Shown piece by piece: positions 2,621-35,978 of a DNA stretch of 37,114 nucleotides. A program made the position numbers and the translations under genes. Source of the stretch: a virus. Its lineage: Duplodnaviria; Heunggongvirae; Uroviricota; Caudoviricetes. Within the stretch, counting starts at the first letter, position 1, and each line of letters opens with the position of its first letter. The notes under the pieces were generated by a model, which saw only the letters and a list, made by a program, of their open reading frames with translations, did not search any database and was not told where the DNA came from. The DNA lies in the IMG/VR virus record IMGVR_UViG_3300029084_000052, positions 1-37,114 of that record; one strand, written 5' to 3'.

Positions 2621-2733
2621 AACTGAAGTTGCCCTGAAAATGAAATTTTTTTGCACAACCGCAGAACTTTTCCGCAGGGCATCAGTCTTAATTAGTGCCA
2701 CTGCTTTTCTTTGATGTCCCCATTTTGTGGAGC

Positions 2734-2776
2734 CCATCAACCCCGCCATTTCGGTTCAAGGTTGATGGGTTTTTTG
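2734..2776 (+). terminator. Stem-loop plus T-tract downstream of ybjL, at or near the left prophage junction
   Basis: cccatcaacc ... ggttgatggg stem followed by ttttttg on the plus strand. Confidence 0.4.
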
Positions 2777-2855
2777 TTGCCTGAAATTTAAGATGTTTAA
2801 AATCATGATGTTAGAAGCACTGTTTTTTAACGATGGCGACAAAATGGCGGCAGCG

Positions 2856-3074
2856 TCAAAGAGAGAGCGCCACCTGTCCTGATTTCATTGGATGCGGCTG
2901 AACTGGATTCGACTCTTTTGGTGTTGCAATCGAACGAACAAAAGTTTCATGGGTAACAAAAGTATGGCTGCAGTTAATGTTCTGGCACTGGTTATAACGC
3001 TCTTTGGTCAATGAAGATACCTGAAAACTGCTGCGAGTATGGGCGGCACTTCCACACAGTGGGCAAATCATCAT
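2856..3074 (-). CDS. ogr: Late-gene transcription activator, Ogr (P2) / B (186) family zinc-finger protein
   Basis: MMICPLCGSAAHTRSS...ERYNQCQNINCSHTF resembles P2 Ogr (CPLC ... C-x2-C-x3-NC); ATG chosen at the MMICPLCG position, giving about 72 aa. Confidence 0.8.
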   Translation of the reverse strand: MMICPLCGSAAHTRSSFQVSSLTKERYNQCQNINCSHTFVTHETFVRSIATPKESNPVQPHPMKSGQVALSL

Positions 3075-3164
3075 TTTTCGAGTTCTCCCCATTTTTGCTA
3101 AATTCACAACAATGATACCGTATTATTCCATTTTGCAAACTTAAAAGTTCTCCATTGCGAAGAA

Positions 3165-24968: not shown

Positions 24969-25586
24969 TTACCAGTTAAAAATTGATGAGCTGCGAATTG
25001 CAGGAACATCCGATGGATTTCGTTTGGCAGCTGGTTCCATCAACTTACGCTTGTTAAATGCCTGATCAATATAATACTCAGGATTTTTAATAAAGACAGA
25101 GTATTTTACCAATGCACAATATACGTCAGAGTCATTATAATGGGGAACTGTTTTTTCATAAACATGATTCTTTCTAACCAGATAAGGCAAATAATAATCA
25201 TATCCCCAACCTGGCGTTCTTAGACTTATAGAACATCCGCATGATGGATCTGCACATACTGCAGGAGTAAACACACTGTCGTAAATTTCATCTCTGATAA
25301 CACCAATTAGACCATTATAGTTTTCTCCCCAGAGTGATGCTTGAATTTCAGAGTTTATAAATGGACGATTTTTGGTTTCCGTTCCAATAAGAACGACAGT
25401 AACCGTTGAGTCTTTTAAAAAATCCTCACGAATAGTCCTCATTATTGTTTCATCAGTGTTAGTTGTACTAATGTCACCATCACTTACCGACTTATCAATA
25501 AACGATTCTCCTCCGAATAAATCAATAATCTCATCTTTGAGATCTTGTTCGTTAGCATGATGATAACTAAGAAACGTCTTATGCAT
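24969..25586 (-). CDS. TIR-like domain protein (ThsB/DUF1863-like), accessory gene
   Basis: Begins MHKTFLSYHHANEQD (TIR beta-A-like F-L-S-Y); a later VTVVLIGTETKNRPFINSEIQ stretch resembles the ThsB-type core with a candidate catalytic Glu; AT-rich coding sequence. Confidence 0.55.
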   Translation of the reverse strand: MHKTFLSYHHANEQDLKDEIIDLFGGESFIDKSVSDGDISTTNTDETIMRTIREDFLKDSTVTVVLIGTETKNRPFINSEIQASLWGENYNGLIGVIRDEIYDSVFTPAVCADPSCGCSISLRTPGWGYDYYLPYLVRKNHVYEKTVPHYNDSDVYCALVKYSVFIKNPEYYIDQAFNKRKLMEPAAKRNPSDVPAIRSSSIFNW

Positions 25587-26317
25587 TATTCACTCCATTT
25601 ATCAACATTTATATCAAACTCTTTGACTACCTTATCATTGAAGAAATCGTTTACTTCTTTAAAACCTTCCAATACTTGACTAAAATGATAATAATGCTTT
25701 TGTATAGTACTTATAGGGGTTAAATGATACGGCAGTGATATAAATTCGCCGTTAGGGTCTCTATCCTTTGTGGTCACTTTATCATTATCTGAAACATATT
25801 TATGCCATCTCCGATAATTATTTTGATGCTTTGTTAAAAAAGAGTTTAACGTTTTCAAAATTTCATTTGAAAGTAAATACAGTTTTTTATCTCTTTTTTT
25901 CTTCACATCTAGTAATTTCATTTCATCTCTAATGAATTTATAGCACTCATAATATGAGTTTAAAACTTCTTCAATTGAGTCATAATTCGGATCAAATTTA
26001 AATAATGTTCGCTTCGTATCCAGATAATTTTTTACGCTCTTTTTAAAAAGAAGATCAGACTTATTTAGTAAAATATTAATACCACCAAAACTAAGTTGCT
26101 CCAATCTCAATGAATATCTTTGATGAAATGCACCGACCAGCAAGATATAAGCAACTAAAAATAGTATTAATACTGATAGAAAAGCACGAATTATGCTTAC
26201 ATTTGACATGAAATTAACTATAAACCACCATTTTTCAAACGGTGAAAACGGAATGCACCCCATGATAATAAGTAGAAGAACAAAGATACAACCCCATAAA
26301 ACCCACAATCTGTACAT
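25586..26317 (-). CDS. Two-TM membrane protein with a roughly 170-aa Lys/Glu-rich C-terminal domain of unknown family; partner of the TIR-like gene
   Basis: Start at the ATG (MYRLWVLWGCIF..) after an AAAAGGA Shine-Dalgarno; two hydrophobic helices; stop overlaps the TIR-like start (TAATG). Confidence 0.5.
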   Translation of the reverse strand: MYRLWVLWGCIFVLLLIIMGCIPFSPFEKWWFIVNFMSNVSIIRAFLSVLILFLVAYILLVGAFHQRYSLRLEQLSFGGINILLNKSDLLFKKSVKNYLDTKRTLFKFDPNYDSIEEVLNSYYECYKFIRDEMKLLDVKKKRDKKLYLLSNEILKTLNSFLTKHQNNYRRWHKYVSDNDKVTTKDRDPNGEFISLPYHLTPISTIQKHYYHFSQVLEGFKEVNDFFNDKVVKEFDINVDKWSE

Positions 26318-26470
26318 AAGAAAGATCCTTTTTCTTTTTATAATACTGCAACTACACCTCAAGTCAAAACCCTCTTCTGATATTACCCTCTACTACAGTA
26401 ACCCATCACATGACCTCCGACTTATCAGAAGACTAGCCAAACTTTCTCAATCAAATCAGGTTGCGCGCGC

Positions 26471-26495
26471 TCGTATCCCCGCCACGCCTGCCCGC
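26471..26495 (-). other. cos-like sequence (candidate phage cohesive-end site)
   Basis: Minus strand reads GGCGTGGCGGGGA.., matching the first 13 nt of the P2/186 19-nt cohesive end as I recall it; lies in a short GC-rich island. Confidence 0.4.
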
Positions 26496-26605
26496 TTTAT
26501 GTAGTAGTTTTCATGCAGGTGCATGATCTACGCGAAAGCCCGCCAATTCTGGCGGGCCCTAGCAAAAACGATCCTCAAACGATCATGCGATCTCATGCAG
26601 CATAG

Positions 26606-27448
26606 TCATGCACGATCATTTGACTCAGCATCTGCTGCACGCTTGCTGCGCGAAGATGCACTTTTACTATCAATCTTTCGACAGTTCTTTCTATCCCTGG
26701 CTTCATTTTCTTTAAATTTGTTATATGTCTCAGTATCAAAAAACGAAATTGTTTCAACCTCATCTTTTGGTATGAGCACACGGAAATCTTCGATATTAAG
26801 CCGAGACATTCCACTTATCACACCACTATCAAGATAATGTTGGTGATAGTTAGTCGTGATACTAATCGTTAGATCATCTTTATCCCGATATCCGCTTAAC
26901 ATCGGGAGAAGTTCAAGGTGCTCTGAAAGCCCGTTTTCTAACGCCGGACAAGTAACAAGACCAACATAGATTTTGCGAGACGACAGAGTTGCTATGATCG
27001 GAAACTGTCTTGCGGACGCTTCCATGAGTAATGATTCGAAAGCGTTATTACCTACAGCTTTAGCTAAGGCATCCCAGCGACGATCTCCACGTGATGTGCG
27101 TAACTTATTTCCAAAACCTGAAATCGCAGCGAGGACAATTGAAATCATAACCCATGCTATCTGTTTGATTTCATTTATTCTTTGAAGTTTGTCTTTCGAT
27201 GAAGACAACATGCCATTAAAACTGTCAGGTGTTAGATTCAAGGCATTAGCCAGCCAACGAAACCCTCCGCTGACGTTCAAAATAAAGGTGAAAAAACCGC
27301 CAAGGAGAAAAAAAACGATACCCCAGGCAGCCACAAAAAAATAAGCGTCCCAGCCGTTGGAACGCTTATATCGGTATCTTGTTGAAAGTGATAGGTTTAC
27401 ATAAATAAAACCACTAACCAAAATCACTGCTAAAAGTAATGTTGCCAT
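26606..27448 (-). CDS. Three-TM membrane protein with a soluble C-terminal domain, unknown function; accessory gene
   Basis: 280-aa ORF with three N-terminal hydrophobic helices, AT-rich; coupled to the upstream 71-aa gene (TAATG). Confidence 0.5.
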   Translation of the reverse strand: MATLLLAVILVSGFIYVNLSLSTRYRYKRSNGWDAYFFVAAWGIVFFLLGGFFTFILNVSGGFRWLANALNLTPDSFNGMLSSSKDKLQRINEIKQIAWVMISIVLAAISGFGNKLRTSRGDRRWDALAKAVGNNAFESLLMEASARQFPIIATLSSRKIYVGLVTCPALENGLSEHLELLPMLSGYRDKDDLTISITTNYHQHYLDSGVISGMSRLNIEDFRVLIPKDEVETISFFDTETYNKFKENEARDRKNCRKIDSKSASSRSKRAADAESNDRA

Positions 27449-27663
27449 TATCTGGTTCTATTAGTTTTCTCTTTTACAGTGCTCGTTTTGATGCCTTCAA
27501 GCTTATCCATCTGTGCCTTGATGGCATCCATTGCTCTTTTGTTAGACAAGTCTACGGACACAAAACCATCTTTACTAAGATTGAGTTTGTCCTGGTTCTC
27601 TTTAAGAACCCTTGCCAGACGTTCAACTGGGTTACCCAGGCTAAATGCGGCGATGCTTGACAT
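27448..27663 (-). CDS. Small 71-aa hydrophilic protein, unknown function; first gene of a coupled pair
   Basis: ATG preceded by AAGGGGGAG; stop overlaps the start of the 280-aa membrane protein. Confidence 0.45.
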   Translation of the reverse strand: MSSIAAFSLGNPVERLARVLKENQDKLNLSKDGFVSVDLSNKRAMDAIKAQMDKLEGIKTSTVKEKTNRTR

Positions 27664-27933
27664 AACTCCCCCTTTTCACATGGCGCGGAAGTCTACACTC
27701 CGACGCCTACAACCTCAACAGATTATCTTTAAAATTTAGACAACAATATCATCTGTTGATTGCGTTACTTAAACTTAAGTTCAATGCGCTCGATCATGCA
27801 AGCTGTTTCTTAAGAACTGTTAATTTCCTGGCATATATAGTGGTTAAGGTAACAAATTGACACTAACGCCTCGCATAGCTCGTTGTTCAACCTTGCTGAC
27901 GCCAGAAGCAAGTTCAGACGCCAGCAACGTTTC

Positions 27934-28167
27934 TTAATGCAGCCAGCTGTCGTCTTCCCACACCTTCTGCATAATTTTCATCACTTGTTTTCTTTCTTCG
28001 TCCAGTTGCAATCCGGTCAGTTCCACACCGTTAGAGCTACCTTTGCGGATACGAATTACCGTTTTGGGATACAGAGGACGCAGATTGCGGTAAAGCTCGG
28101 ATTCAAGGGCGTCCAGGGTAGACTGGCTAATCTTCTGCTCTTTATCGATCATTATTTCAATGCGCAT
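27934..28167 (-). CDS. DinI-family protein (damage-inducible protein I-like; 186 Tum C-terminal-domain-like)
   Basis: MRIEIMIDKEQKISQSTLDALESELYRNLRPLYP...KIMQKVWEDDSWLH aligns with E. coli DinI (MRIEVTIAK...ALAGELSRR...ILQETWESADDW) from memory. Confidence 0.75.
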   Translation of the reverse strand: MRIEIMIDKEQKISQSTLDALESELYRNLRPLYPKTVIRIRKGSSNGVELTGLQLDEERKQVMKIMQKVWEDDSWLH

Positions 28168-28178
28168 AAAAAGTCACC

Positions 28179-28367
28179 TCAACTGATGACATCCATTGAG
28201 CGGTTGTATTCGTGGGTTCTGATTTTTGCCATGAGTTCATCTGTTAGTTCAGAAACCCACTGCAAAGCCAGCCCCTTCTCTTCATCACTACACTCACTAG
28301 CCGCTACAAGCTTAAGAAAAAAATCAATGCGCTGGAGCTTCAAAGACTCCAAAAAATAGTCCTGCAT
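28179..28367 (-). CDS. Small 62-aa protein, first gene of the SOS-regulated operon (possible Tum N-terminal-like part)
   Basis: Strong AGGAGG Shine-Dalgarno; lies about 45 bp downstream of a LexA box and 11 nt upstream of the dinI-like gene. Confidence 0.5.
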   Translation of the reverse strand: MQDYFLESLKLQRIDFFLKLVAASECSDEEKGLALQWVSELTDELMAKIRTHEYNRSMDVIS

Positions 28368-28409
28368 CTTTCCTCCTATGACACCAAAGCAATACTGTAA
28401 ATATAACCA

Positions 28410-28425
28410 CTGTTTATATTTACAG
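28410..28425 (-). promoter_or_regulatory. LexA operator (SOS box) inside a 37-bp palindrome
   Basis: CTGTTTATATTTACAG (CTG-N10-CAG) within ATACTGTAAATATAACCACTGTTTATATTTACAGTAT; an overlapping near-match CTGTAAATATAACCAC lies just upstream. Confidence 0.7.
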
Positions 28426-28519
28426 TATATAATAATCTTACTGATGTAAAACGTTTTTTTACGTTCATCAGCCTGATATGCCTGGTATTATTAAGAGCAC
28501 GAATTGTTAACCCGCGTAA

Positions 28520-30934
28520 TTAATACAGGTTTCGCCACTTATCATCTTCCTGCAAACGCTGGTTCCGATAGAAGATACGCAGGCCTGCTCCTGACGGAAT
28601 ACTGCCGCCGCGAAGGAGTAAATCGACCTCTTTCTCGCTACCATCAAATCCTCTGGACTTCAGCTCATAGACGAGCTGCTGTCGCTGATGGTCTGTAATT
28701 CGCTGTTTGTAGTCTTTACGCCGTTTCGGTTTAACCAGGCGTAACCTTGCTGCCAGTTCCCGGCGCTCTTTTTTGCTCATACTGTGCAGGTAATCGTGCA
28801 ACTGCTTGTCATCCATGCGGGTAATGTCCGTTCTGGTGCCCCCATCAGCTGATTTATCTTTCTCCTGTTGGTTCAAATTTTCAGCAAGGGGACAGTTATT
28901 GCCACGAGTCCAAGGGGCGCAAGCGCCCTGGTCGGCTGCCGCCTCCTGAACGTCAACGGCTTTACGGACCATTTTCCACTTCACTGCATGAGTGCAGATC
29001 TTGCCCTCTGCAATGGGTGACCAGATGCCATAAATACGAATACCGTGATCGCCATAGGCGGTCGGCTCTTCGTTGATTTCATAAGCGGTTCTGATGAGGT
29101 GATATTTACGGGGAACCAGTACGCCGCCCTGCTTCATGATGTAGGTGGCAAAGCAACCAGCATCAGCTGCAGCCAGAATGGCATCAAGGCGCGGGTTATC
29201 CAGTACCGGCGCACCTGCTTTTTTGTCACCCTGTTGCCTTGCCGCCTGACCAGCCAGCAATCGCAGTTCACGGTAAGCCTGACGCCCCGGAATGCCAAAG
29301 AAGCGGAATTGCTGAACACGATGCAGAGACGCCCAGGCATTAACGTATTCAGCGTTATCACGCAGAGATTTACCCGTTTCCTTGCTGATCTCGCCAGCCA
29401 GACCACGCCCGTCAATGTTCTTACTGATGTATTTCGCGATGTAGCTTGTTGGTGTACCTTTGCGCGGGTTTATCAGCTCAGACTTAAAGCGTGGTCCTGT
29501 GTTATTACCCAGCTCCTCGCGGTCTTCACGAATGGCAAACTTACGCAACAAAGCAGTAATGGCGCGGCGATCTTTTTTGCGCATAAAACACAACAGGTGC
29601 CAGTGAACTGTACCGTCATGATGCGGCTCAGCCACCCGCACGCCATACCAGCGCAATCCGGCTTTGTACATCGCCTTACGAAATGCAGCAAACATGCCGA
29701 CCAGATAATCACTGCTTTGTCTTACCGTCGCATTTGTCCAAGTCGGGTTGGGCCTGCCGTTATTTAGCGTGGAATGGAAACGTGACGGACAGGTGATGGT
29801 GTAGAAAACGGCGCAGTCACCGCGCATTTCCGCGATAAGCTCCAGACCTTTAACACATGCCATCATCTCATTGCGGCGATGCGCCGGGTTGCTACTACTG
29901 GCGTTTACCACGTCCTCCATATCCAGCGTGTCGCCGTCTTCGTTCACCAGTTCATGAGAACGGAAAAACTCCAGCGACTTACGGCGCTGCTCACGTTTAT
30001 GCATCACGGCTTCATAGCTGACATAGGGAGATGCTTTTTTGCTGACCAGGCAAACAGCACGCAACTGCTCTTCCCGCCATTCGCAACGCATCTTCCATAA
30101 TTTCCGATACCACCAGTCGGCGCACAACATACGCGCCAGCGAACCCGGAATGAGTTCATAGGGTACGGGTTTACGGCGGTTTCTTTTCCGGCGGAGTTGC
30201 TCAAACGCAGGAGGGATGACATCCAGACGCAGGGTTTCCGCCGCCACCCTTTCCCATGTCTTGCGGATTTCTTCTGGCTTAACGTCATCGGTGGCATACA
30301 AATCACCACAAACTGCATCAAGGCACATGCTCATATGCGCGGCAACAAGGGTAGACAGGCGCTTCACCTGAGCCTGACTCATTTCAGGCAAGATCAGCAG
30401 GCCGTCCAGCCCTTCATGGCTTGCCATAAAACGAAAAGATGCAGATAGCTGGCTGTCGCGTACATGCTCCAGTCGTTCCAGACATGGTTTAATCGTCTCA
30501 CGCAAATAGCGGGAATAAGCCTTTGGCCTGCCCAGGCTGCTGAAGTATTCAATACGTTGCATCAGCGGCTTGCTGATATGGGAAGGCTGGGCGTTAACGT
30601 CCGCCAGTATGACCATGTCCGGATTAAAACGCTGCTGCTCATGCACCAGCTTTGCCCGGCTAATGAGCTTATCCTGCTCCATTTCGCGCTGGACAGGATC
30701 ACGGGATTCATTAAAGAAATAACGCTCCCAGACCTGATCACTCAGTGCCTCGCGGCGCAGTTGTTCCTGCTTGTTATCGGCAGCGTACAGAGTGATCAGG
30801 TTTGAAAGCGCAGAAACCGGCGCAACTTCCGCCGGGTCCAGATAAGGGTTAATCGCCTTTTTCGGGCTGTTCCATGAGAATGCTGCGGCGGCCTCGTTAA
30901 AGCCGCTGCAGTTGTTCATATCAGCATGGCTCAT
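28520..30934 (-). CDS. A: Replication initiation protein A (rolling-circle nicking endonuclease, P2 gpA family)
   Basis: 804-aa ORF of P2 gpA size (about 761 aa) at the P2 A position; its start overlaps the Dam stop. Confidence 0.8.
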
Positions 30935-33367: not shown

Positions 33368-33589
33368 CTAGTTGAATACAACATTGCAATCAGTAAGTGC
33401 ATCAACGGTAAGAGCAGCAAGGTTGATCATTACCTTTTCTCTTTTCTTGTCTTTCCGAAGGCGATGGCGAGGGATGCGACCATCAGCCAGCATATCGTTG
33501 ATGGTGTCGATAGAAAGACCAGTAAGTTCGCTATAACGCTCAATTGTGACATGTGGCGTATTCAGAGTTATTGAAATGTTAGGGGTCAT
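33368..33589 (-). CDS. apl: Apl-like excisionase/transcriptional regulator (Cox analogue)
   Basis: About 73-aa HTH protein ([27 protein letters not shown]), first gene of the leftward lytic operon, AGGAG Shine-Dalgarno. Confidence 0.65.
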
Positions 33590-33684
33590 GATGCAACATC
33601 TCCTATTGGCTTGTGGTGAGCCTGTAGTAATCGTGATAAGTACCCAAATGGGGACAAAATTGATACTAGGATCGCAAAAGAGAT

Positions 33685-34281
33685 ATGTCAACATCAAAGT
33701 ACCCAAATGAGATCAAAATAAATCCCAATAAAGGTGGTAAGGCTGCGATTGAGCGATTAGTCGAAGCTTATGGCTTTACGACACGACAGGCTTTAGCTGA
33801 TCACTTGGAAGTATCAAAAAGCACTCTGGCGAACAGGTATTTGCGGGATACGTTTCCTGCAGACTGGATAATCCAATGTGCTCTTGAAACAGGAACCTCA
33901 CTGAAATGGTTAACCACCGGGCAAGGCCTTAAGCAAAGCTCGCTGACAGCAGCTACAGAAGAGCTTGCCAAGTTTCGCCTTACCGCAGGCAAAATGATTG
34001 AAGATGGTTCATATGTCTTCGATTCATCATTTCTTCCTGCAAATCTTTCATCACCAATTGTTATTCAGGATGGGCTCGTCACATACATTTGTGATCAAAA
34101 ATTTTCTGAAGTACTTGATGGGCACTGGTTAATCAACATCGACGGAACCTATTCCATTCGAAAAATCACAAAGCTTCCAAAAGGTATGATTAAAATTACA
34201 AGTACAGAGAATAGCTTTGAATGTGCATTTTCTGATATTGAAGTAGTTGCTTGTATAAGAAGTACAATAATTTCAAATTAA
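33685..34281 (+). CDS. cI: CI-type immunity repressor, phage 186 type
   Basis: 198-aa ORF with N-terminal motifs (AYGF...QALADHL..S.STLANRY...CALETG.SL.WL.TG.G) resembling 186 CI from memory; divergent from apl. Confidence 0.7.
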   Translation: MSTSKYPNEIKINPNKGGKAAIERLVEAYGFTTRQALADHLEVSKSTLANRYLRDTFPADWIIQCALETGTSLKWLTTGQGLKQSSLTAATEELAKFRLTAGKMIEDGSYVFDSSFLPANLSSPIVIQDGLVTYICDQKFSEVLDGHWLINIDGTYSIRKITKLPKGMIKITSTENSFECAFSDIEVVACIRSTIISN

Positions 34282-34301: not shown

Positions 34302-35978
34302 ATGAATTCATTTTCCATCGTTATATTCTTATTAGCATTTCTCGCCCCCATTCTAGCTGTAATATTATTTAAGCAAAGCAAAAAACATAAAGCGGCTATA
34401 AATACCTTGACAGCTAACAACATAGCCCTTTCCAACCAACTGAAAGAAAATCAAGAAGAATTAGCACAGACTGTACGAGATCTATCAGAGCTTGAAGGAC
34501 GAGCTGCGCCATTATGGCAATACGTAGAATTGCACAGCGCAGTGATGGAAGCAGAGAATAAGATAAAAAATGCAGACTCAATAGCCAGGCAAAAAATAGA
34601 AGAAGCCCAAATAAAGGCTGCTAAGACAGTAAACGAAGCAAATTATCAAGCTCAGATAAAAATAAGCAACGCTAATAGCGAAGCTATAGCAATTACTAAA
34701 GACGCTCGCGATGCACGCCTGAAAGCTAAAGAACGTCTTGATAATGCCAATAGTAAAGCAAATGAGCTGATCTCAAATGCTAATGACAATGCAGTGAAAA
34801 TTATTTCCGATGCAGAAGAAAGAGCAAAAGAGATTGCTGGTTCAGCATATGAAGCTAAAGAGTTTGCAGAAAAATATGAAGCAGTTGCCAAATCAATGAA
34901 AAATAAAATTGAAGGTTATGGTGATGAATGGATCATCCCTAACCGTAGCGTTCTCGATGAATTGGCAGAAAATTATGAGTTTACAGATGCAGGTAAGGAA
35001 TTACAAAAAGCCAGGGAGTTAACAAAATCATTAATAAAAACTAATAAAGCTGCTTCGTGTGATTATGTTGAACAAAACAGGCGTAATACTGCTATCAACT
35101 TTGTTTTAGATGCCTTCAATGGAAGAGTTGACAGTATTTTATCAAAAGTCAAACACAACAATTTTGGAAAACTTTCCCAAGAGATAAAAGATGCGTTTCA
35201 ACTTGTAAATTACAATGGTTCTGCCTTTAGGTCCGCAAAAATAAGTGACATCTATCTTCAAGCTCGACTCAACGAGCTAAAATGGGGAGTTGCAGTTAAT
35301 GAAATTATGCTCGAAGAAAAAGAAGAGCAAAGAAGGATTAAAGAACAACTTCGTGAAGAGGAAAGAGCTCGTAGGGAGTATGAAAAAGCGATAAAAGAAG
35401 CTGAAAAAGAAGAGAAAGCTATTCAGCAAGCTATAAATAAAGCAACAAAAGAGCTTATGCTTGCAAATGAAGAACAACGCTTAGCTTTAGAGCAAAAAAT
35501 AGCTGAACTACAGTTAAAATATGAAGAAGCTGAAGCTAAAAACCAACGAGCTATTTCTATGGCTCAACAAACTAGATCAGGCCACGTTTATATAATTAGT
35601 AATATTGGCTCATTTGGCGAAGATGTATATAAAATTGGAATGACACGCCGCCTTGAACCACTTGATCGTGTTCGTGAACTCGGTGATGCTAGTGTTCCTT
35701 TTTCGTTCGATGTTCATGCGATGATTTATAGTGATGATGCACCATCATTAGAAAATCATCTGCATAAAGTCTTCAACGAAAAACAGGTCAATAAAATTAA
35801 CTCACGAAAAGAGTTTTTCAACGTAAATATTAAAGAAATTAAGTCTGTTATTGAAGATATGAACATCAACGCACAATGGACAATGTTTGCGGAAGCGAAA
35901 GAATATAGAGAGTCACTGGCGATTGAGCAAGAGCGCAAAGCAGCAACTTCCGCCAACGATGAACTGCATGTTGCTTAG
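34302..35978 (+). CDS. Membrane-anchored coiled-coil protein with a C-terminal T5orf172/GIY-YIG-like domain (DUF4041-like architecture); accessory gene
   Basis: N-terminal TM helix, long Ala/Lys/Glu-rich repeats, C-terminal GHVYIISNIGSFGEDVYKIGMTRRLEPLDRVRELGDASVPFSFDVHAMIYS; AT-rich; AAAAGGA Shine-Dalgarno 20 nt after the cI stop. Confidence 0.6.
   Translation: MNSFSIVIFLLAFLAPILAVILFKQSKKHKAAINTLTANNIALSNQLKENQEELAQTVRDLSELEGRAAPLWQYVELHSAVMEAENKIKNADSIARQKIEEAQIKAAKTVNEANYQAQIKISNANSEAIAITKDARDARLKAKERLDNANSKANELISNANDNAVKIISDAEERAKEIAGSAYEAKEFAEKYEAVAKSMKNKIEGYGDEWIIPNRSVLDELAENYEFTDAGKELQKARELTKSLIKTNKAASCDYVEQNRRNTAINFVLDAFNGRVDSILSKVKHNNFGKLSQEIKDAFQLVNYNGSAFRSAKISDIYLQARLNELKWGVAVNEIMLEEKEEQRRIKEQLREEERARREYEKAIKEAEKEEKAIQQAINKATKELMLANEEQRLALEQKIAELQLKYEEAEAKNQRAISMAQQTRSGHVYIISNIGSFGEDVYKIGMTRRLEPLDRVRELGDASVPFSFDVHAMIYSDDAPSLENHLHKVFNEKQVNKINSRKEFFNVNIKEIKSVIEDMNINAQWTMFAEAKEYRESLAIEQERKAATSANDELHVA

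What the first reader, a model, noticed from the sequence alone, without database searches (positions are those of the whole stretch)
27934..28428. LexA-controlled operon with a DinI-like gene: SOS-inducible, Tum-like induction module
A consensus-quality LexA box sits in a 37-bp palindrome about 45 bp upstream of a 62-aa gene followed by a DinI-family gene. Together with the 186-type cII/apl/cI switch, this suggests the prophage is SOS-inducible like 186 and unlike P2. The two ORFs sum to roughly the length of 186 Tum as I remember it, so they may be a split or two-protein version of a Tum-like antirepressor.
Basis: partly seen in the sequence, partly recalled or inferred. Interest (0 to 1): 0.5.

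Follow-up and report, generated by a model that had tools for sequence, protein, structure and literature searches.

The report
SOS-controlled split Tum antirepressor operon
This is the DNA-damage switch of a 186/Fels-2-type prophage in E. coli, a LexA-repressed pair of small genes (an antirepressor and a DinI-like protein), and it is real but already described and tested in near-identical sister prophages.

Summary
On the minus strand, just downstream of the replication gene A, lie a 37-bp near-perfect palindrome (28392-28428), a 62-aa gene (28179-28367) and a 77-aa DinI-family gene (27934-28167).

The interpretation, an SOS-inducible split Tum module, is supported but already published.
- The DinI-like protein is 41% identical to the C-terminal half of 186 Tum.
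- The 62-aa protein has no BLAST match to Tum. Profile methods align it in register with the Tum N-terminal half (PHROG cross-hits; hhalign 91.6%, E 8e-7).
- PSP3 annotates the same arrangement as tumA/tumB.
- Lemire et al. 2011, citing Bunny et al. 2002, state that Fels-2 and PSP3 have tum split by a stop codon.
- In E. coli HS prophage DuoHS, which sits at the same ybjL/rybB site, deleting the 98%-identical 62-aa gene or making lexA non-cleavable abolishes mitomycin C induction.

I found three further points in none of the papers I could read.
- The palindrome is a colicin-type dual operator: two SOS boxes overlapping by 1 bp, 28/31 identical to ColE1-type operators. 186 and PSP3 have a single box.
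- The antirepressor stays 84-100% identical across prophages whose CI repressors are only 34-92% identical to one another.
- A covarying hairpin follows the DinI-like gene.

The parts
28445..28450 (-). Putative -35 hexamer TTTACA of the SOS promoter (counterpart of 186 p95)
   Evidence: The sequence reads TTTACA-17 nt-TACTGT. 186 p95 has the same layout, TTCACA-18 nt-TACTGT. TTTACA is conserved in relatives. The generic promoter scan did not flag it because its -10 scores only 3 of 6, so the assignment is by analogy.
28422..28427 (-). Putative -10 hexamer TACTGT, which is also the left half of SOS box 1
   Evidence: This is the same -10/LexA overlap as annotated for 186 p95. An alternative is TATACT with a 15-nt spacer.
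28408..28427 (-). SOS box 1: TACTGTAAATATAAACAGTG, a full CTGT-N8-ACAG LexA site
   Evidence: It matches the consensus at 17 of 20 positions, is unique in the window, and 0 of 100 shuffles gave a match. A box is present in all 12 relatives examined.
28393..28412 (-). SOS box 2: CAGTGGTTATATTTACAGTA, with a degenerate left half (GTGG) and a perfect right half (ACAG). As a 16-mer it overlaps box 1 by 1 bp. Together the two boxes form the 37-bp palindrome 28392-28428.
   Evidence: It matches the consensus at 15 of 20 positions. The CAGTGG-N8-ACAG junction is invariant in all Fels-2-type relatives while the spacers vary. The 31-nt core is 28/31 and 27/31 identical to ColE1-type colicin operators.
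28179..28367 (-). tumA-like gene (62 aa): predicted CI antirepressor, homologous to the N-terminal half of 186 Tum
   Evidence: phrog_698 at E 3.6e-38, plus cross-hits with Tum N-half families. hhalign 91.6%. The AF2 model is a two-helix hairpin with pLDDT 90. It is 61/62 identical to ECHS_RS04495, whose in-frame deletion abolishes MMC induction of DuoHS.
27934..28167 (-). tumB-like gene (77 aa): DinI-family protein, counterpart of the C-terminal half of 186 Tum
   Evidence: PF06183 at E 6.6e-23. 41% identity to 186 Tum residues 71-145. E. coli DinI 1GHH at E 2.7e-6. 100% identical to Fels-2 STM2726.1 and HS ECHS_RS04500.
27863..27931 (-). Conserved 3' element: an 18-bp hairpin (27889-27931) followed by the near-invariant GGTTGAACAACGAG-N5-GCGAGGCGTTAG. 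It is a probable 3' end or boundary of the operon; its function is unknown.
   Evidence: It is shared with PSP3, 813R9, Cartapus, SopEphi, MLG42 and ST13phi12.1 but not Fels-2. Seven pairs show compensatory double changes. It has no U-tract and no Rfam match. Homology among relatives stops just beyond it.
33685..34281 (+). cI (198 aa): 186-type immunity repressor, the inferred target of the antirepressor
   Evidence: PF07022 and PF16452, with no S24 self-cleavage domain among the Pfam hits. 33% identical to 186 CI.

Best explanation
This is the SOS induction module of a Fels-2/186-type P2-like prophage of E. coli, in its split form. It is a two-gene operon: tumA-like (62 aa) followed by tumB-like (77 aa, DinI-like).

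Proposed mechanism:
1. In the lysogen, host LexA occupies a dual operator that covers the -10 and the start region of a sigma-70 promoter (TTTACA-17-TACTGT). This keeps the operon silent. By analogy with colicin operators, two LexA dimers probably bind.
2. DNA damage activates RecA, and LexA cleaves itself.
3. The operon is transcribed.
4. The small helical-hairpin TumA-like protein binds the 186-type CI repressor and stops it binding DNA. This CI has no self-cleavage domain.
5. pR is derepressed and lytic growth begins.
6. The DinI-like product probably binds RecA filaments and tunes the SOS signal. It is not the antirepressor.

Shown here: the sequence features and the homologies. Shown by others in 98-100% identical sister modules: the requirement for tumA and for cleavable LexA. 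Inferred: LexA occupancy of both boxes, TumA-CI binding in this prophage, and the role of the DinI-like protein.
For: - Anatomy and statistics of the operator.
- Promoter layout identical to the annotated 186 p95.
- A LexA box upstream of the tumA homologue in all 12 relatives examined.
- TumB matches DinI and the Tum C-half.
- TumA matches the Tum N-half by profiles, in register.
- PSP3 record: tumA is annotated 'similar to 5' end 186 tum; UV induction of prophage' and tumB 'similar to dinI and 3' end of 186 tum'.
- Lemire 2011 (PMC3121763): Fels-2 and PSP3 have tum split by a stop codon, and in PSP3 the upstream gene carries the antirepressor activity.
- The 186 record lists an internal GTG start that gives a separate 77-aa DinI-like 'truncated Tum'.
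- Phollow paper (PMC12055606): deleting tum, or lexA(Ind-), blocks MMC-induced lysis of DuoHS. The deletion primers match the start and stop of the 62-aa ORF. ECHS_RS04495 is the 62-aa CDS upstream of the DinI-like CDS, and it is 61/62 identical to the window's.
- CI has PF07022 and PF16452 only, with no peptidase domain.
- 186 induction works by Tum sequestering CI (PMC7708051).
Against: - Nothing has been measured for this prophage.
- Its CI is only 52% identical to DuoHS CI and about 40% identical to Fels-2 CI. That TumA inactivates this particular CI is therefore an extrapolation.
- Pairwise BLAST sees no similarity between the 62-aa protein and Tum or PSP3 TumA. The link rests on profiles of short helical proteins.
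- The promoter hexamers are assigned by analogy and were not picked up by the generic scan.
- No canonical terminator follows the operon.
Confidence: 0.9

Rival explanations
1. Only the DinI-like gene is functional, as an SOS-modulating moron. The 62-aa ORF would be an unrelated or non-functional leader ORF, and the prophage would be non-inducible like P2 or induced by another route.
For: - BLASTP finds no similarity of the 62-aa ORF to Tum or TumA.
- It has no Pfam domain and is named 'hypothetical protein' in the databases.
- There is no solved relative, and fold search returns only generic helical hairpins.
Against: - Profile-level homology to the Tum N-half is reciprocal and in register.
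- The protein is conserved at 81-100% across Enterobacterales.
- A precise deletion of the 98%-identical gene that leaves the DinI-like gene intact abolishes induction in DuoHS.
- CI lacks a self-cleavage domain, so an antirepressor is needed.
Confidence: 0.04
2. The 37-bp palindrome is not a LexA operator. It would instead be a hairpin or cruciform element, such as a terminator for gene A, or the binding site of a phage protein.
For: - It is a near-perfect 18-nt-arm inverted repeat lying between gene A and the next gene.
- A second imperfect inverted repeat lies just upstream.
Against: - Among relatives the CTGT, CAGTGG and ACAG blocks are invariant. The spacers change without compensation, so arm complementarity is lost in 813R9, ST13 and HS.
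- The stem would be almost entirely A/T, and no T-run terminator was detected there.
- The same block pattern is the LexA operator of colicin genes (PMC2994835).
- lexA(Ind-) blocks induction in DuoHS, which carries the same operator.
Confidence: 0.03
3. The module is intact but mismatched. After mosaic exchange of the immunity region, this TumA would no longer recognise the resident CI. The prophage would then be SOS-blind, while its TumA could still induce other co-resident prophages in trans.
For: - TumA is 98-100% identical to that of Fels-2, DuoHS and several Klebsiella phages, while CI is only 40-54% identical to theirs.
- The Apl gene of the window has no detectable counterpart in most of them.
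- Trans-acting antirepressors are documented in Salmonella (PMC3121763).
Against: - The same near-identical TumA goes with at least six CI types. It is required for induction with the DuoHS CI. It is implicated with the Fels-2 CI, which is 40% identical to the DuoHS CI.
- The residues invariant among these CIs cluster in the N-terminal HTH domain. That would provide a common docking surface.
Confidence: 0.08

Closest known systems
Coliphage 186 Tum (p95-tum SOS operon)
   Same: - Same position downstream of gene A.
- LexA box overlapping a TACTGT -10.
- N-terminal antirepressor part homologous by profile.
- C-terminal DinI-like part 41% identical.
- Same type of CI target.
   Different: - 186 has one 146-aa ORF with an internal start for the DinI-like part. 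Here there are two separate genes 11 nt apart.
- The N-terminal part is too diverged for BLAST.
- 186 has a single SOS box; here there are two overlapping boxes.
- 186 carries orf97 downstream; here the cargo is different.
Phage PSP3 tumA/tumB
   Same: - The same split arrangement, explicitly annotated.
- TumB is highly similar.
- The conserved 3' hairpin element is shared.
   Different: - PSP3 TumA belongs to the 186-like family phrog_1993, whereas the window's belongs to phrog_698.
- PSP3 has a single SOS box.
Salmonella Fels-2 STM2728 / STM2726.1 and E. coli HS DuoHS tum (ECHS_RS04495) / ECHS_RS04500
   Same: - TumA 61/62 identical, TumB 77/77 identical, the same dual operator and the same gene order.
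- DuoHS sits at the same ybjL/rybB-rcdA chromosomal site.
- LexA and tum dependence of induction is shown for DuoHS. lexA-null lethality is attributed to Fels-2 (Bunny 2002, as cited).
   Different: - CI repressors are 41% (Fels-2) and 54% (DuoHS) identical to the window's in the multiple alignment (40% and 52% by pairwise comparison).
- The cargo genes downstream of tumB differ.
Colicin operators with two overlapping SOS boxes (ColE1-type plasmids)
   Same: - The same CTGT-N8-(A/C)CAGTGG-N8-ACAG architecture, 27-28 of 31 identical.
- This arrangement is reported to bind two LexA dimers and to give no detectable basal expression (PMC2994835).
   Different: - In the colicin promoters examined here the boxes lie downstream of the -10. 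Here box 1 overlaps the -10.
- The downstream genes are unrelated.
Gifsy-type LexA-controlled dinI-antirepressor operons (GfoA/GftA)
   Same: A LexA-repressed operon pairs a small antirepressor with a DinI homologue, and the repressor is not cleaved (PMC3121763).
   Different: - The gene order is reversed, with dinI first.
- The repressor family there differs (gfoR/gtgR).
- I did not test sequence similarity between the window's 62-aa protein and GfoA/GftA.

Membership tests
186-type Tum SOS induction module (split tumA/tumB form) | LexA operator overlapping the promoter of the operon | tested here: met
   Met at sequence level. The box matches the consensus at 17/20, is unique in the window, and overlaps a TACTGT -10 as in 186 p95. 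LexA binding itself cannot be tested here.
186-type Tum SOS induction module (split tumA/tumB form) | Location immediately downstream of replication gene A, at the end of the early region | tested here: met
   gpA-like gene at 28520-30934(-), followed by the operator and the two genes.
186-type Tum SOS induction module (split tumA/tumB form) | Protein homologous to the Tum N-terminal (antirepressor) half | tested here: met
   BLASTP is negative. Profile evidence is positive: reciprocal PHROG cross-hits at E 5.9e-6 and 2.2e-3, a shared phrog_8554 at 2.4e-8 and 3.4e-12, and hhalign 91.6%, E 8.1e-7, in register.
186-type Tum SOS induction module (split tumA/tumB form) | DinI-like C-terminal half or a separate DinI-like gene | tested here: met
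   PF06183 at 81 bits. 41% identity to Tum residues 71-145.
186-type Tum SOS induction module (split tumA/tumB form) | Cognate 186-type CI repressor without a RecA-stimulated self-cleavage domain | tested here: met
   CI has PF07022 and PF16452 only, and is 33% identical to 186 CI.
186-type Tum SOS induction module (split tumA/tumB form) | Antirepressor activity: binds CI and prevents operator binding, and is required for SOS induction | not testable with these tools
   Shown biochemically for 186 Tum (Shearwin 1998, cited). Shown genetically for the 98%-identical DuoHS protein. Not measured for this prophage.
DinI family (PF06183) | Sequence match above the Pfam gathering threshold over the full domain | tested here: met
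   81.3 bits against a cut-off of 24.2, covering profile positions 1-63 of 63. Full-length match to E. coli DinI 1GHH.
DinI family (PF06183) | Binding to RecA filaments and modulation of SOS | not testable with these tools
   Inferred from family membership. The 186 record notes that the truncated Tum 'modulates SOS induction'.
Colicin-type dual overlapping SOS operator | Two 16-bp SOS boxes overlapping by 1 bp (CTGT-N8-NCAG / GTGG-N8-ACAG) | tested here: met
   The pattern occurs once in the window, with 0 of 100 shuffles. It is present in every Fels-2-type locus and in both Col plasmid loci, and absent from the 186, PSP3, ESSI-2, ev015 and YenM loci. It is 28/31 identical to a Col plasmid operator.
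Colicin-type dual overlapping SOS operator | Binding of two LexA dimers, with very low basal and late expression | not testable with these tools
   Reported for colicin operators (PMC2994835). Not measured for the phage operator.

The most novel reading that the evidence does not exclude
The Fels-2-type tum module may differ functionally from the 186 paradigm in two linked ways.

1. Its operator is a colicin-type double SOS box. This would hold the antirepressor fully off and delay induction until LexA is deeply depleted.
2. Its TumA is a generalist. It stays 84-100% identical while partnered with at least six CI types that are 34-92% identical to one another. It would then have to dock on the conserved N-terminal HTH domain of CI, where the motif SKST-A-R--RD-FPA-W is invariant.

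If both hold, one SOS-triggered TumA could co-induce several P2-like prophages with divergent CI repressors in the same cell. Whether those repressors confer different immunities was not tested.
Probability: 0.4. Interest if true: 0.4.

Novelty: already known. Interest (0 to 1): 0.17.

Why it matters
The module decides whether a very common family of E. coli, Salmonella and Klebsiella prophages wakes up on DNA damage, including damage from antibiotics such as quinolones. Part of the query spanning the module and the cargo downstream of it (26400-28520) is matched in 1281 of 5426 complete E. coli genomes.

These prophages carry defence and virulence cargo. This one carries a PD-Lambda-1 homologue and a ThsB-like TIR gene. 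SOS inducibility therefore governs the spread of that cargo.

The core biology is established, so the finding mainly serves annotation. The 62-aa gene is still labelled 'hypothetical protein' in RefSeq, Pfam and PHROGs, although it is the antirepressor.

The dual operator and the invariance of TumA against diverging CI are modest, testable additions.

Tried and rejected
- **BLASTP of the 62-aa protein** against 186 Tum and PSP3 TumA found nothing. tblastn against the phage collection gave only E=4 to a Yersinia 'tum protein'. Homology needed profiles.
- **Databases for the 62-aa protein.** Pfam, PADLOC and PDB sequence searches gave nothing.
- **Structure.** AF2 plus Foldseek against the PDB gave only generic two-helix hairpins at E>1, which says nothing about function.
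- **Generic promoter scan.** It did not flag the SOS promoter, so the hexamers are assigned by analogy with 186 p95.
- **Terminator-like hairpin** at the tumA stop and tumB ribosome-binding site (28190-28173). It is not conserved in SopEphi, ST13, ST437, MLG42 or PSP3, so I treat it as incidental.
- **Hairpin or cruciform reading of the palindrome.** Rejected because the spacers vary without compensation.
- **Rfam.** No family matches the operator region or the 3' hairpin; there was only a sub-threshold HrrF hit at E 0.72.
- **Bunny et al. 2002 (PMC151935)** is not held in the library. Its content is cited only through Lemire 2011. I could not check whether it already noted the double SOS box.
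- **The Salmonella SOS regulon paper (PMC8072944)** used strain 14028, and its only mention of Fels-2 is a reference title, so it gave nothing on the Fels-2 module.
- **One literature search** was wasted on a term that was too short, and one on a 'TumA' surname collision.

Full report
**1. What is in the sequence**

The genes of interest are on the minus strand. A P2 gpA-like replication gene (28520-30934) is followed by a 152-bp intergenic region, a 62-aa ORF (28179-28367), an 11-nt gap, and a 77-aa ORF (27934-28167).

The intergenic region holds a near-perfect 37-bp palindrome at 28392-28428, with 18-nt arms that are 94% complementary. Within it, TACTGTAAATATAAACAGTG (28427-28408) matches the LexA consensus at 17 of 20 positions. 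It is the only such match in the 37-kb window, with 0 of 100 shuffles giving any.

The 77-aa protein is a clear DinI-family member: PF06183 at E 6.6e-23, and E. coli DinI 1GHH at E 2.7e-6 over its full length. The switch region is of the 186 type. CI carries PF07022 and PF16452, and there are a Cox/Apl-like gene and a CII with PF06892.

**2. Where the window comes from**

The left flank (grxA-ybjM-ybjL) is 100% identical to E. coli strains such as 042. The rybB sRNA gene lies at 2700-2778, and the prophage ogr end starts about 80 bp further on.

The finding region is 96-98% identical to Fels-2 of Salmonella LT2 and to many E. coli and Klebsiella P2-like phages. Part of the query 26400-28520, which spans the module and its downstream cargo, is matched in 1281 of 5426 complete E. 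coli genomes.

**3. Is it a split Tum?**

The DinI-like protein aligns with residues 71-145 of 186 Tum at 41% identity, E 3e-24. The 186 record itself lists an internal GTG start at exactly this point. It gives a 77-aa 'truncated Tum' that 'modulates SOS induction'.

The 62-aa protein gives no BLASTP alignment with 186 Tum or PSP3 TumA. Profiles do link them:
- The 62-aa protein belongs to phrog_698 (E 3.6e-38). It also hits phrog_8554 (2.4e-8) and phrog_1993 (2.2e-3).
- PSP3 TumA defines phrog_1993 (2.7e-32).
- 186 Tum residues 1-70 hit phrog_1993 (1.5e-23), phrog_8554 (3.4e-12) and phrog_698 (5.9e-6, residues 6-44 to profile 6-44).
- An hhalign of alignments built from database homologues of each gives 91.6% probability, E 8.1e-7, columns 4-42 to 4-42.

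The shared core is h-x-R-h-x(6)-h ... C ... (E/D)-x-x-h-A-L-x-(W/L)-h-x-E-h. AlphaFold2 predicts a confident two-helix hairpin (pLDDT 90). No solved structure informs its function.

Stand-alone N-half proteins of 63-91 aa are also common among close homologues of the 186 Tum N-half. ESSI-2-type and Yersinia phages carry a tumA-like gene with no dinI-like partner. The two halves thus behave as separable modules.

**4. This is already in the literature**

The PSP3 GenBank record annotates tumA ('similar to 5' end 186 tum; UV induction of prophage') and tumB ('similar to dinI and 3' end of 186 tum').

Lemire et al. [quoted passage not shown] They cite Bunny et al. [quoted passage not shown]

In E. 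coli HS, the P2-like prophage DuoHS lies between rcdA and ybjL, the same site as here. An in-frame deletion of tum, or a lexA(Ind-) G85D allele, abolishes mitomycin C-induced lysis and virion formation (PMC12055606).

The published deletion primers fuse ATAGGAGGAAAG-ATG to TGA-GGTGACTTTTATGCGCATTG. These sequences match the start and stop of the 62-aa ORF in the window exactly, apart from a 1-nt T-run difference, and they leave the DinI-like gene intact. The deleted gene ECHS_RS04495 is a 189-bp CDS that RefSeq calls 'hypothetical protein'. It is 61/62 identical to the window's protein. The DinI-like proteins are 77/77 identical.

**5. Mechanism**

The promoter is assigned by analogy with the annotated 186 p95 (TTCACA-18-TACTGT). 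Here it reads TTTACA (28450-28445), 17 nt, TACTGT (28427-28422). SOS box 1 therefore overlaps the -10 and the start region.

LexA would block transcription until RecA-stimulated self-cleavage. TumA would then sequester CI, which has no S24 self-cleavage domain. This is how 186 Tum works (PMC7708051; Shearwin 1998 as cited there). The DinI-like protein would act on RecA filaments.

The sequence features and homologies are shown here. The requirement for LexA cleavage and for tumA is shown by others in a near-identical module. TumA-CI binding in this prophage is inferred.

**6. What the palindrome really is**

Read on the coding strand, the palindrome is TACTGTAAATATAAACAG-TGG-TTATATTTACAGTA. 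This gives two boxes:
- a full SOS box (CTGT-N8-ACAG);
- a second 16-mer that overlaps it by one base (GTGG-N8-ACAG, 15 of 20 to the consensus).

A distant BLAST of 56 bp against plasmids hit 849 records, many of them small mobilizable E. coli plasmids. In the two examined, the match lies 36-38 bp upstream of a colicin-like pore-forming gene. It reads CTGTATATAAAAACAGTGGTTATATATACAG, which is 28/31 identical to the window (27/31 in the second plasmid).

All Fels-2-type relatives chosen by TumA homology carry the same CTGT-N9-CAGTGG-N8-ACAG pattern. These are the window, Fels-2, 813R9, SopEphi, ST13phi12.1, ST437phi4.1, MLG42, Cartapus, three Klebsiella prophages and DuoHS. In contrast, 186, PSP3, ESSI-2, ev015 and YenM_06.16-2 have a single box.

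The spacers vary without compensation, so the conserved units are the LexA half-sites and not the symmetry. This argues against a hairpin function.

In IMG/VR, 57 of 80 fetched contigs with this pattern have a tumA homologue starting 59-95 nt downstream. Among the 61 sites with A/T-rich spacers, 57 do. I found no paper noting this for the phage operator, but I could not read Bunny 2002.

**7. TumA is invariant while CI diverges**

Relative to the window, TumA is 98-100% identical in Fels-2, DuoHS, Cartapus and three Klebsiella prophages, and 84-89% in SopEphi, ST13, ST437 and MLG42. Their CI proteins are only 40-54% identical to the window's, and 34-92% identical to one another.

The divergence is in the linker and the C-terminal domain (29-40% identity). 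The N-terminal HTH domain keeps 62-76% identity, with an invariant motif GG(K/R)..I.R...AY.F ... S.ST.A.R..RD.FPA.W.I.C.LETG.SL.WL.TG. This motif differs in 186 and ev015, which have other TumA types.

I infer that TumA docks on the N-terminal domain and can serve, or cross-induce, prophages with divergent CI repressors. Whether these CIs confer different immunity was not tested.

**8. Downstream boundary**

Directly after the tumB stop codon lies an 18-bp hairpin (27889-27931). It shows seven compensatory pair changes across seven phages. It is followed by a near-invariant GGTTGAACAACGAG-N5-GCGAGGCGTTAG (to 27863).

The element has no U-tract and no Rfam match. Similarity among relatives ends just beyond it. 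What follows is variable cargo, in the position that orf97 occupies in 186.

**9. Verdict**

The feature is real and correctly interpreted, and it is already known. It is the split tumA/tumB SOS induction module of Fels-2-type P2-like prophages, validated genetically in a sister prophage at the same locus.

Interest is low. The modest new points are the colicin-type double operator, the TumA/CI decoupling, the conserved 3' hairpin, and the fact that public annotation still calls the antirepressor 'hypothetical'.

Noticed in passing
window 2700-2778 (+) and 2856-3107 (-): The rybB sRNA gene (Rfam RF00110, 105 bits) lies about 80 bp from the prophage ogr gene. The prophage therefore sits between ybjL/rybB and, beyond the window, rcdA. 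This is the same site as DuoHS in E. coli HS. The att core may overlap the 3' end of rybB.
   Followed up: partly
window 27863-27931 (-): A conserved structured element lies just 3' of the DinI-like gene. It is an 18-bp hairpin with 7 covarying pairs, followed by the near-invariant GGTTGAACAACGAG-N5-GCGAGGCGTTAG. It is shared with PSP3 and five other phages but not Fels-2. It has no U-tract and no Rfam family. It marks the edge of the variable cargo region.
   Followed up: partly
window 28179-28367 (-) versus 33685-34281 (+), with loci L015-L026: The antirepressor is 84-100% identical across prophages whose CI repressors are 34-92% identical to one another. CI conservation is confined to the N-terminal HTH domain. 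This suggests a generalist antirepressor and possible cross-induction.
   Followed up: partly
window 34302-35978 (+): A 558-aa gene between cI and int matches the anti-phage defence protein PD-Lambda-1 (PADLOC E 4.7e-120) and carries DUF4041 plus T5orf172/MUG113 domains. It is defence cargo inside the immunity region.
   Followed up: no
window 24969-25586 (-) and 25586-26362 (-): A 205-aa ThsB-like TIR protein (PF08937 E 1.5e-14; PADLOC ThsB E 3.4e-12) abuts a 258-aa protein with no family match. They lie between portal gene Q and the tum operon. They may form a Thoeris-like or novel two-gene defence system.
   Followed up: no
window 26606-27448 (-) and 27448-27663 (-): A 280-aa protein (phrog_3630) and an overlapping 71-aa protein (phrog_9843), both of unknown function, lie downstream of the DinI-like gene on the same strand, in the position of 186 orf97. 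PADLOC gives no hit. The Pfam hits to membrane-protein families are weak and sub-threshold (E 0.14 and 0.75). The 26400-28520 query that spans this pair and the tum module is at least 80% covered in only 52 complete E. coli genomes.
   Followed up: no
window 28173-28190 (-): A weak hairpin plus T5 run spans the tumA stop codon and the tumB ribosome-binding site. It is conserved only in the closest relatives and is probably incidental.
   Followed up: yes
window 33368-33706 (-): The mechanical ORF for the Apl/Cox-like gene is 112 aa, but homology to phrog_575 starts at residue 40, so the real start is probably internal (about 73 aa). This Apl has no detectable counterpart in most relatives that share TumA, which shows that the immunity region is mosaic.
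   Followed up: no
loci L009/L024 (ev015), L010 (ESSI-2), L011 (YenM_06.16-2): Some P2-like phages carry a LexA-boxed tumA-like gene with no DinI-like partner. Many close homologues of the 186 Tum N-half are stand-alone proteins of 63-91 aa. The fused 186 Tum may therefore be the exception.
   Followed up: partly
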